Source: an uncultured Thermotogae bacterium
Lineage (GTDB): Bacteria > Bipolaricaulota > Bipolaricaulia > UBA7950 > UBA9294
Length of the DNA stretch: 64,000 nt
Assembly: GCA_964354815.1 (NCBI GenBank)
Contig: CAYHBG010000001.1
Location: 10,803 to 74,802, forward strand
Direction: 5' to 3'
The translations under genes were made by a program, and so were the position numbers. The notes under the pieces are model-generated. The model was not told the DNA's origin. It searched no databases and saw only the letters and a list, made by a program, of their open reading frames with translations. Positions 33,045 through 33,619 of the stretch are shown piece by piece (within the stretch, counting starts at the first letter, position 1; the number at the start of each line of letters is the position of its first letter).

Positions 33045-33263
33045 CTACACCGACTCTCCCTTGAAAGTCTCAGCGTTGAACTCGATGACCTCGTCGTCGC
33101 TTGCGAGACGATCTCCGTCGGGGGTGGCCTGGGCGTGGCTTCCGATCCAGTCCTCGCGCAAGGCGAGGTAGTAGTGAAAAGGGAGCTGGGCTACCTCGTG
33201 AGGCCACTTCCCGTACCACCTCGCGATACGGAAGATGAGATCACGAGTGGTCAGGCGTTTCCC
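33045..33263 (-). CDS. -1 frameshift extension of the tail assembly chaperone (gpT-like part of G-T fusion)
   Basis: 70-codon open frame in the -1 frame relative to the chaperone, entered at the slippery site; ...TTRDLIFRIARWYGKWPHEVAQLPFHYYLALREDWIG...; ends TAG (plus cta 33045-33047) just before the TMP start 33029. Confidence 0.5.
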   Translation of the reverse strand, partial: GKRLTTRDLIFRIARWYGKWPHEVAQLPFHYYLALREDWIGSHAQATPDGDRLASDDEVIEFNAETFKGESV

Positions 33264-33619
33264 TTGGCCGGCTCTTCCTCGGACTCGCCGTCCTTCTTCA
33301 CGGTCTCCGGCTCATCGCCGTAGTGCATCCGGTTGACGGTCTGGTTCAGCTTCAGCACGACCCGCATCGGCAGGCCGGCGAGCGTCTCCGGCGTGAGCTT
33401 CGGCTCCACGCTGCACTTGAGGACCATCAGCTTGAGGAGGAGGGCGTTGTCGATGGTCTCGTCCTCCACGCCCGAGAGCGGGTTGACGGTCTTCGAGGTC
33501 GCCTTCCTCACGAGCTCGTCGTAGTCCCCGATGGAGAGCTCGCGCAGCTTGTAGGTAACGTCACGGACGGTGACCTCCTCCTCGAGGAAGTCCGGGGTCA
33601 GGATCTGGGCACGGGCCAC
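33251..33619 (-). CDS. tail assembly chaperone (gpG-like)
   Basis: GTG 33619 with AAGGAG RBS 7 nt upstream; acidic 122-aa protein; directly upstream of TMP and followed by the -1 frame ORF. Confidence 0.6.
   Translation of the reverse strand: MARAQILTPDFLEEEVTVRDVTYKLRELSIGDYDELVRKATSKTVNPLSGVEDETIDNALLLKLMVLKCSVEPKLTPETLAGLPMRVVLKLNQTVNRMHYGDEPETVKKDGESEEEPAKGNA
33257..33263 (-). other. canonical -1 programmed ribosomal frameshift slippery heptamer G_GGA_AAC (GGGAAAC)
   Basis: Plus strand gtttccc at 33257-33263 = GGGAAAC on the coding strand, two codons before the chaperone stop (gcc aag gga aac gcc tga). Confidence 0.5.

What the first reader, a model, noticed from the sequence alone, without database searches (positions are those of the whole stretch)
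33045..33619. Canonical G-T-type -1 programmed frameshift (GGGAAAC) in the tail assembly chaperone
The slippery heptamer G_GGA_AAC lies two codons before the chaperone stop. The -1 frame is open for a further 70 codons up to the TMP start. The geometry matches the conserved gpG/gpGT mechanism.
Basis: seen in the sequence. Interest (0 to 1): 0.5.

Follow-up and report, generated by a model that had tools for sequence, protein, structure and literature searches.

The report
Phage tail chaperone G/GT frameshift site
This is an ordinary, well-supported example of the programmed -1 ribosomal frameshift that tailed phages use to make a short and a long form of their tail assembly chaperone, found here in an uncultured phage lineage with an unusually long tape measure gene.

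Summary
On the minus strand a 122-codon gene (33619..33251) ends ...AAG GGA AAC GCC TGA, so G_GGA_AAC (33263..33257) is in the X_XXY_YYZ register. The -1 frame then runs 70 more sense codons to TAG (33047..33045), 15 nt before the ATG of a 3191-codon tape-measure-like ORF.

An open -1 frame alone means little here, because 57% of positions in this 66% GC phage have one. The support comes from comparison with relatives. In 46 metagenomic loci the downstream peptide is always in the -1 frame and 55-97% identical. It has no start codon of its own for its conserved first ~34 residues. Its substitutions fall mainly on third positions of that frame.

Verdict: a new member of the known lambda G/GT kind. 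GGGAAAC is already a reported predicted slip site in phages KL1, Colossus and Trackstar and archaeal virus HCTV-1. No fusion protein has been observed.

The parts
33251..33619 (-). Gene G: tail assembly chaperone, 122 codons, GTG start, TGA stop 33253..33251.
33627..33633 (-). Shine-Dalgarno-like GAAGGAG, 7 nt upstream of the GTG start of G.
   Evidence: Read directly from the sequence.
33274..33280 (-). Shine-Dalgarno-like GAGGAAG inside G. Its GAGG ends 13 nt upstream of the heptamer. Possible dnaX-type upstream stimulator (inferred, weak).
   Evidence: A GAGG/GGAG-type motif lies 6-14 nt upstream of the slip site in all 29 distinct upstream sequences. It cannot be separated from the Glu-rich coding of this tail.
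33257..33263 (-). Slippery heptamer G_GGA_AAC in the zero frame of G.
   Evidence: Located. It is in register in 43 of 46 related loci. Gly120 is the rare codon GGA in 31 of 34 distinct sequences, while other invariant Gly columns use GGC/GGT/GGG. The preceding codon varies (K, P, T, S, Q, E) but always ends in G. It is the only GGGAAAC in 9617 structural-gene codons.
33195..33247 (-). Imperfect 22-bp hairpin starting 9 nt 3' of the heptamer; candidate stimulatory structure.
   Evidence: MFE is -28.8 kcal/mol with z -2.8. The same architecture is the MFE in most of 33 distinct homologues, at -21 to -33 kcal/mol. 89% of cells are paired against 33-49% for slid controls, with 3 pairs changed on both sides. 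RNAalifold did not recover it and found no covariation.
33045..33263 (-). T segment in the -1 frame: GGG AAA then 70 sense codons (RLTTRDLIF...GESV), TAG stop 33047..33045. Expressed only as the C-terminal extension of GT (191 aa).
   Evidence: Translation is. The first ATG/GTG/TTG in this frame is a TTG 38 codons before the stop. T is in the -1 frame in all 46 loci at 55-97% identity. Diversity by codon position is 0.087/0.070/0.254 for codons 122-158. The model shows a three-helix N-terminal 45 aa and a disordered tail.
33030..33044 (-). 15-nt spacer between the T stop and the next ATG. It forms AGCCGG-AGA-CCGGCU, a hairpin that contains the GGAG of the next gene's ribosome binding site.
   Evidence: MFE is -9.7 kcal/mol with shuffle p 0.005 in the window. 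Only 6 of 18 distinct relatives reach p below 0.1. The 12-19 nt gap to a conserved ATG is present in all relatives.
23454..33029 (-). Tape-measure-like ORF of 3191 codons, immediately downstream of T.
   Evidence: ORF. Weak tape measure PHROG matches at aa 116-180 (phrog_10574 E 2.3e-4, phrog_1538 E 0.011). No Pfam family for the whole protein. The N-terminus IGVKLTLDA is conserved, and the ORF exceeds 1900 codons in the 8 relatives where it runs off the end of the stored locus DNA.

Best explanation
The locus encodes a tail assembly chaperone pair made by programmed -1 ribosomal frameshifting, as in lambda G/GT.

**Proposed mechanism.**
- Most ribosomes translate G (122 aa) and stop at TGA 33253..33251.
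- A minority slip one base 5' while GGA (P site) and AAC (A site) are being decoded on G_GGA_AAC. The tRNAs re-pair with GGG and AAA.
- Those ribosomes then read CGC CTG ACC... and produce a 191-aa GT protein (...EEPAKGN-RLTTRDLIF...GESV).

**Inferred function, by analogy with lambda.** The shared G domain coats the very long tape measure protein. The T extension (a small helical domain plus a flexible tail) recruits the tail tube protein. The low slip frequency fixes a high G:GT ratio.

**Possible modulators.** The hairpin 9 nt downstream, and perhaps the GAGG motif 13 nt upstream, raise or tune the slip frequency on a heptamer whose A-site codon (AAC) is only weakly slippery in bacteria.

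**Status of each step.**
- Shown here: sequence geometry, conservation, coding constraint in the -1 frame, chaperone fold.
- Inferred: the slip itself, its frequency, the role of the structures, and the binding partners.
For: **Geometry.** Heptamer, frames and stops are read.

**Synteny.** Terminator, tube, tube, ORF112, G, T, tape-measure-like ORF, inside a tailed-phage module with terminase, portal, protease and capsid genes.

**Comparison across relatives.**
- T is always -1 relative to G in 46 loci.
- GGGAAAC is in register in 43 of 46 loci. The other 3 have a slip-prone AAG GGG one codon upstream.
- L042 lost the G stop but kept the heptamer.
- Synonymous sites of the heptamer are fixed, while the codon before it changes amino acid but keeps its final G.
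- T has no start codon for its first ~34 conserved residues.
- Variation in T is dominated by third positions of the T frame.

**Downstream hairpin.**

**Precedent.**
- GGGAAAC is the predicted chaperone slip site in Burkholderia phage KL1, immediately upstream of the TGA stop (PMC3483164).
- It is also predicted in Caulobacter phage Colossus (PMC3556154) and Microbacterium phage Trackstar (PMC13460127).
- It is given as the g-t shift site in archaeal virus HCTV-1 (PMC5009743).
- The lambda mechanism and 30:1 ratio are summarised in PMC5009743.
Against: - No protein, ribosome-profiling or reporter data exist for this uncultured phage, so the fusion product is inferred.
- Sequence-level family matches for G are weak: phrog_344 E 1.7e-3, and PF10109 at 14.4 bits is below its cutoff of 25. 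There was no PDB sequence hit.
- The T domain has no detectable relative outside this lineage.
- In E. coli, A_AAA_AAC shifts much less than A_AAA_AAG (PMC5009743), so efficiency may be low.
- The hairpin is kept mostly through sequence conservation within a coding region. RNAalifold found no covariation, and several pairs are broken in 12-17 of 33 sequences.
Confidence: 0.9

Rival explanations
1. T is translated independently from an internal start (for example the conserved TTG 38 codons before its stop) and is not joined to G.
For: A TTG is present at the same position in most relatives. Synonymous sites around it are unusually conserved.
Against: The ~34 residues of T upstream of that TTG (RLTTRDLIFRIARWYGKWPHEVAQLPFHYY) are its most conserved part. 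Their diversity by codon position is 0.087/0.070/0.254, so they are translated. No purine-rich ribosome binding site precedes the TTG. No ATG/GTG/TTG occurs in the T frame between the upstream stop and that TTG.
Confidence: 0.03
2. The ribosome changes frame here, but not by tandem slippage on G_GGA_AAC. One option is P-site-only slippage on G_GGA before the A site is filled, which would give ...KG-K-RL... instead of ...KG-N-RL.... Another is slippage aided by the nearby stop codon.
For: Three relatives lack GGGAAAC. L039 has G_AAG_GGG, which is not a perfect tandem site. The zero-frame stop lies only one codon after the heptamer in 40 of the 43 loci that carry GGGAAAC in register.
Against: The full heptamer is conserved, including the first G and the AAC. 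That conservation is what tandem slippage predicts. L042 keeps the heptamer with the stop moved 5 codons further away.
Confidence: 0.05
3. The overlap is an accident of a GC-rich genome, and the -1 frame region is untranslated spacer between G and the tape measure gene.
For: 57% of positions in the structural genes have a -1 frame open for at least 72 codons.
Against: The T peptide is 55-97% identical over 46 loci, with variation dominated by third positions of that frame. The heptamer is conserved at synonymous sites.
Confidence: 0.01

Closest known systems
Bacteriophage lambda gpG / gpGT (-1 frameshift on G_GGA_AAG; Levin et al. 1993; Xu et al. 2004, 2013, 2014, as summarised in PMC5009743)
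   Same: Two overlapping ORFs sit between the tail tube gene and the tape measure gene. The slip site lies a few codons before the G stop, and T is reachable only in the -1 frame. The first six bases (G_GGA_AA) are the same. G has the chaperone fold.
   Different: The A-site codon is AAC (Asn), not AAG (Lys). T is short: 70 residues here, against roughly 140 in lambda (from memory). A conserved hairpin follows the site, whereas lambda needs none to my knowledge. There is no detectable sequence similarity. The partner tape measure ORF is 3191 codons.
Burkholderia phage KL1 gp18/gp19, Caulobacter phage Colossus and Microbacterium phage Trackstar chaperones; archaeal virus HCTV-1 g-t
   Same: The predicted slip site is the identical heptamer GGGAAAC. 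In KL1 it lies immediately upstream of the TGA stop (PMC3483164, PMC3556154, PMC13460127, PMC5009743).
   Different: No sequence relationship was found. tblastn of GT and blastn of 8 kb against 50,697 phage records returned nothing significant. Those sites are also predictions rather than demonstrations.
HK97 tail assembly chaperone (PDB 2ob9) and B. subtilis YqbN/XkdN-type chaperone (PDB 3klu)
   Different: Identity is 13-16%. The profile search against PDB sequences found nothing.
E. coli dnaX -1 frameshift (A_AAA_AAG with an upstream Shine-Dalgarno-like element and a downstream stem-loop)
   Same: The possible three-part signal is alike: a GAGG motif 13 nt upstream, a heptamer, and a stem-loop 9 nt downstream.
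   Different: The heptamer is different and the gene family is unrelated. The upstream motif cannot be separated from Glu-rich coding and is untested.

Membership tests
Phage tail assembly chaperone G/GT programmed -1 frameshift (Xu, Hendrix and Duda 2004 type) | Two overlapping ORFs located between the major tail (tube) gene and the tape measure gene. | tested here: met
   The order on the minus strand is terminator 35280..34861, tube paralogues 34851..34474 and 34448..34020, ORF112, G, T, then the 3191-codon ORF. One extra 112-codon ORF sits between tube and G.
Phage tail assembly chaperone G/GT programmed -1 frameshift (Xu, Hendrix and Duda 2004 type) | X_XXY_YYZ slippery heptamer in the zero frame of G, within the G/T overlap. 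| tested here: met
   G_GGA_AAC lies at 33263..33257. It is in register in 43 of 46 relatives.
Phage tail assembly chaperone G/GT programmed -1 frameshift (Xu, Hendrix and Duda 2004 type) | The downstream ORF is in the -1 frame, lacks its own initiation site, and is under protein-coding constraint. | tested here: met
   There is no start codon until 38 codons before the T stop. T is in the -1 frame in all 46 loci. Diversity by codon position is 0.087/0.070/0.254.
Phage tail assembly chaperone G/GT programmed -1 frameshift (Xu, Hendrix and Duda 2004 type) | The upstream ORF is a tail assembly chaperone (fold or family). | tested here: met
Phage tail assembly chaperone G/GT programmed -1 frameshift (Xu, Hendrix and Duda 2004 type) | Both G and the GT fusion are made, at a high G:GT ratio, and both are needed for tail assembly. 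| not testable with these tools
   This needs protein detection, a reporter assay or genetics. The host is unknown.
Stimulated -1 frameshift signals (heptamer plus downstream structure at 5-9 nt) | A stable structure at the right spacing, conserved with covariation. | tested here: inconclusive
   The hairpin has a 9-nt spacer, -28.8 kcal/mol and z -2.8, and it recurs in most homologues. 89% of cells are paired, against 33-49% for slid controls. Only 3 pairs change on both sides, RNAalifold does not recover it, and no Rfam family matches.
Tape measure protein (identity of the downstream 3191-codon ORF) | Membership of a tape measure family, or characteristic motifs and position. | tested here: inconclusive
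   Position is met. PHROG tape measure matches are only weak at aa 116-180 (E 2.3e-4 and 0.011). No Pfam family matched.

The most novel reading that the evidence does not exclude
In this lineage the frameshift may do more than set the G:GT ratio. Frameshifted ribosomes terminate only 12-19 nt upstream of the start of the giant tape measure gene. In the window, that gene's GGAG is held inside a -9.7 kcal/mol hairpin. Tape measure synthesis could therefore be translationally coupled to GT synthesis, which would tie the number of tape measure molecules to the number of GT molecules. A three-part signal (upstream GAGG, heptamer, 22-bp hairpin) would then tune both at once.
Probability: 0.08. Interest if true: 0.5.

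Novelty: new member of a known kind. Interest (0 to 1): 0.2.

Why it matters
For annotation, the locus should carry a joined GT coding sequence (33619..33257 joined to 33257..33045, with -1 slippage) rather than a 122-aa 'hypothetical protein'. All 120 listed database homologues are called as G alone, at 117-136 aa.

Biologically it extends the conserved G/GT recoding strategy to an uncultured, metagenome-only phage lineage. That lineage has tape measure ORFs above 1900-3191 codons, where chaperone coating of a very long tape measure should matter most.

The family also gives a compact natural series of slip-site variants (G_GGA_AAC, A_AAG_GGG, G_AAG_GGG) with a shared downstream hairpin. This series could be used in reporter assays. 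It does not change what is known about the mechanism.

Tried and rejected
**Searches that found nothing useful**
- tblastn of GT and blastn of 8 kb against 50,697 phage records: no meaningful match (one search failed on length).
- Scan of 185,579 species-representative genomes with the G profile: no relative, so there is no host clue.
- Profile search of PDB sequences: nothing.
- Cluster look-up and contig look-up for the exact G protein: only two short Logan contigs and no name.
- Pfam on GT, the whole tape-measure-like ORF and its segments: only sub-threshold hits.
- Rfam on 32900..33700: only chance-level snoRNA hits.
- Fold search with the T model: no match with E at or below 0.001.

**RNA structures considered**
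- RNAalifold on 33 junctions gave a weak, different long-range consensus (-13.6 kcal/mol, no covariation).
- An alternative helix CGAGGUAG/CUACCUCG is 96% paired but shows no covariation.
- The alternative hairpin ACCAC-UCGUGA/UCGCGA-G-GUGGU, 5 nt downstream, uses codons 134-135. Those codons vary among relatives, so it was rejected as specific to this window.

**Mechanisms considered**
- Transcriptional slippage was rejected because no homopolymer run is longer than 3 (or 5 in the variants).
- Independent initiation of T was rejected (see rivals).
- The hairpin over the tape measure ribosome binding site is significant in the window but not across the family.

Full report
**1. What is in the sequence**

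The feature lies on the minus strand.

- **G gene:** a 122-codon ORF starts at GTG 33619..33617, 7 nt after GAAGGAG. It ends ...GAA GAG CCG GCC AAG GGA AAC GCC TGA, with the stop at 33253..33251.
- **Slip site:** GGGAAAC occupies 33263..33257 in the G_GGA_AAC register.
- **-1 frame:** it reads GGG AAA CGC CTG ACC... and stays open to TAG 33047..33045.
- **Upstream limit of the -1 frame:** it is closed by a stop 17 codons upstream of the heptamer. It holds no ATG/GTG/TTG until a TTG 38 codons before its stop.
- **Next gene:** a 3191-codon ORF starts at ATG 33029, 15 nt after the TAG.
- **Predicted fusion:** tandem slippage would give a 191-aa protein, ...EEPAKGN-RLTTRDLIFRIARWYGKWPHEVAQLPFHYYLALREDW...FKGESV.

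**2. Is it more than chance?**

Two parts of the observation differ sharply in weight.

- The window is 66% GC. In 9617 codons of 13 structural genes, a -1 frame open for at least 72 codons is found at 57% of positions. The long open -1 frame is therefore uninformative by itself.
- In-register XXXYYYZ heptamers are rare: 19 in 9617 codons, or about 0.04 expected in the 20-codon overlap.
- Nearly all of those 19 are G/C-only. This is the single GGGAAAC.
- GGA is the rarest glycine codon here (88 of 950).

**3. Context**

The window is a tailed-phage genome segment (PHROG matches). Genes on the minus strand, in order:

| Gene | Coordinates | Support |
|---|---|---|
| Large terminase | 59213..57711 | E 6e-76 |
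| Portal | 57491..56085 | E 1e-49 |
| 2622-codon ORF | 49850..41982 | no PHROG family |
| Glycosyltransferase | 41278..40010 | E 4e-30 |
| Protease-like | 40013..38712 | E 3.9e-10 |
| Major head protein | 39066..37375 | E 2.2e-12 |
| Adaptor | 37316..36399 | E 2.6e-6 |
| Neck1 / HK97 gp10-like | 36016..35294 | PHROG E 1.1e-15 |
| Tail terminator / gp17-like | 35280..34861 | Pfam E 4.8e-8; PHROG E 1.7e-3 |
| Two small tube paralogues | 34851..34474 and 34448..34020 | E 5.7e-7 and 8.1e-11 |
| Unknown 112-codon ORF | 33936..33598 | no family |
| G, T, long ORF | see section 1 | see below |

The long ORF has only weak tape measure signals: phrog_10574 E 2.3e-4 and phrog_1538 E 0.011 at aa 116-180. 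No Pfam family matched. Its position, its Gly/Ala/Gln-rich C-terminal third and its repeated VGE-GPE-type motifs fit a tape measure protein (read by eye).

**4. The G protein**

- Single-sequence family matches are weak: phrog_344 'tail assembly chaperone' E 1.7e-3, and PF10109 at 14.4 bits against a cutoff of 25.
- A model built on 19 homologues has pLDDT about 90 over residues 10-100. The tail from residue 103 to 122 is disordered, and this is where the slip site lies.
- The best BFVD hits are named tail assembly or tape measure chaperones. Mu FS-gp41 and N15 GT also appear further down the list.

**5. Comparative test of the frameshift**

No relatives were found in 50,697 deposited phage records or in species-representative genomes. 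G does have 168 metagenomic homologues, and all 120 listed are called as 117-136 aa proteins, i.e. G alone. A profile scan of IMG/VR returned 48 loci.

- In all 46 loci that include the junction, a T-like peptide follows G in the -1 frame. Identity to the window's T is 55-97%.
- The 34 distinct GT sequences are 46-100% identical pairwise, with a median of 70%.
- GGGAAAC is in register in 43 of 46 loci.
- Gly120 is GGA in 31 of 34 distinct sequences. Other invariant glycines use GGC/GGT/GGG.
- The codon before it encodes K, P, T, S, Q or E but always ends in G.
- L042 has lost the G stop (TGA to TCA, so G runs 5 codons longer) yet keeps the heptamer.
- Three loci carry AAG GGG GAA instead. In L013 and L015 this gives the canonical A_AAG_GGG one codon upstream. 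In L039 it gives G_AAG_GGG, an imperfect site. The slip site has therefore turned over while the recoding position was retained.
- Nucleotide diversity by codon position in the T frame is 0.087/0.070/0.254 for T codons 122-158. This is the signature of a translated, constrained protein, and it covers the stretch that has no start codon.
- The T stop is followed after 12-19 nt by the ATG of a long ORF with a conserved N-terminus (IGVKLTLDA) in every relative.

**6. Candidate stimulators**

*Downstream hairpin*
- The 66 nt after the heptamer fold into an imperfect 22-bp hairpin that begins 9 nt downstream (33247..33195). MFE is -28.8 kcal/mol with z -2.8, or z -3.4 in my own shuffles.
- The same architecture is the MFE in most of the 33 distinct homologous junctions, at -21 to -33 kcal/mol.
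- On the alignment, 89% of cells pair, against 33-49% when partners are slid. Three pairs show changes on both sides.

*Caveats on the hairpin*
- The structure was derived from the window sequence.
- The region encodes a conserved peptide.
- Several pairs are broken in 12-17 of 33 sequences.
- RNAalifold prefers another, weak consensus without covariation.
- Overall I regard the hairpin as probable but unproven.

*Upstream motif*
- A GAGG-type motif lies 6-14 nt upstream of the slip site in every distinct sequence.
- This recalls the dnaX upstream element. However, the tail is Glu-rich, so the motif may simply follow from coding.

*Why stimulators would make sense*
- A_AAA_AAC is much less shift-prone than A_AAA_AAG in E. 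coli (PMC5009743).
- A weak heptamer aided by stimulators would still suit the low GT:G ratio known for lambda, about 1:30 (PMC5009743).

**7. The T segment**

- A single-sequence model gives a three-helix unit over the first 45 residues (pLDDT 73-88) and a disordered tail. This matches the conservation profile: codons 122-158 are conserved, 159-181 are variable, and there is a conserved C-terminal NAE..GESV.
- No fold relative was found. This is usual for T domains and leaves the binding partner inferred.

**8. Comparison with what is known**

This is the lambda G/GT arrangement in every feature that could be tested. GGGAAAC is already the predicted chaperone slip site in four viruses:
- Burkholderia phage KL1, where it lies immediately before the TGA stop (PMC3483164);
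- Caulobacter phage Colossus (PMC3556154);
- Microbacterium phage Trackstar (PMC13460127);
- archaeal virus HCTV-1 (PMC5009743).

It is therefore a new member of a known kind. The distinctive points are secondary: a metagenome-only lineage, tape measure ORFs above 1900-3191 codons, a conserved downstream hairpin, and slip-site turnover within the family.

**9. Verdict**

What remains unshown is the product itself, its frequency, and the contribution of the flanking RNA elements. Interest is low, since this is a textbook mechanism, apart from its value for annotation and the side observations listed separately.

Noticed in passing
window 23454-33029 (minus strand): The tape-measure-like ORF is 3191 codons, far longer than usual. 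Its first ~2000 residues look domain-rich rather than helical. They include a sub-threshold ParB_N-like stretch with DGNHRLAVARRLG (aa ~465-530, Pfam E 0.024; PHROG DNA methyltransferase/ParB-like families at E 4.6e-4 to 0.08) and an HEVGHALRRH metalloprotease-like motif near aa 852. In 8 relatives the homologous ORF runs off the end of the stored locus DNA at more than 1900 codons.
   Followed up: partly
window 41982-49850 (minus strand): A second giant ORF of 2622 codons lies between the portal region and the glycosyltransferase/protease/capsid genes. Its only family match is a Laminin_G_3 (concanavalin-like) domain at aa 1129-1257 (E 1.8e-16). It has no PHROG family.
   Followed up: partly
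window 33152-33190 (minus strand), T codons 146-157: Synonymous sites are almost invariant across 34 distinct relatives (codon identity 0.83-1.0 for Leu/Pro/Ala/Arg, against about 0.5 elsewhere), and rare codons (CCT, TTT, TTG) are used. The block contains a local hairpin CCUCGC-CUUGC-GCGAGG (33168..33152) and is complementary to CGAGGUAG at the 3' foot of the frameshift hairpin. Its function is unknown.
   Followed up: partly
window 33030-33044 (minus strand): The 15-nt spacer between the T stop and the tape measure ATG is an inverted repeat, AGCCGG-AGA-CCGGCU, that encloses the GGAG of the ribosome binding site (-9.7 kcal/mol, shuffle p 0.005). Relatives often have a different hairpin at the same place, but only 6 of 18 reach p below 0.1.
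   Followed up: partly
L013:4052-4080, L015:2151-2180, L039:4695-4725: Three relatives replace GGA AAC with GGG GAA. L013 and L015 then have the canonical A_AAG_GGG one codon upstream. L039 has G_AAG_GGG, which is not a perfect tandem slip site, yet T remains in the -1 frame and conserved.
   Followed up: partly
L042:6122-6160: The zero-frame stop of G is mutated (TGA to TCA), so G runs 5 codons further. The heptamer and the T frame are unchanged.
   Followed up: yes
window 34020-34448 and 34474-34851 (minus strand): Two adjacent small paralogous tail-tube genes (142 and 125 codons) both match major tail protein PHROGs, where one tube gene would be usual.
   Followed up: no
window 33598-33936 (minus strand): A 112-codon ORF with no family match sits between the tube genes and G and overlaps the G start by 22 nt. 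It is called in both Logan contigs that carry the identical G.
   Followed up: no
L040 and L044 (IMGVR_UViG_3300028802_000007, 130,935 bp): One viral contig holds two different G/GT/tape measure cassettes about 70 kb apart. Both have an extra codon between the heptamer and the stop (GGGAAAC GCC GCC TGA). This could be two related genomes joined in assembly or a real duplication.
   Followed up: no
window 26157-31187 (plus strand) and elsewhere: Very long ORFs run antisense to, or out of frame with, the real genes; one opposite the tape measure ORF is 1676 codons. They are by-products of the 66% GC content and should not be read as genes.
   Followed up: yes
window 40010-41278 and 50482-51348 (minus strand): Two glycosyltransferase-like genes are embedded in the head and packaging module (phrog_2170 E 4e-30; phrog_34859 E 5e-11).
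   Followed up: no
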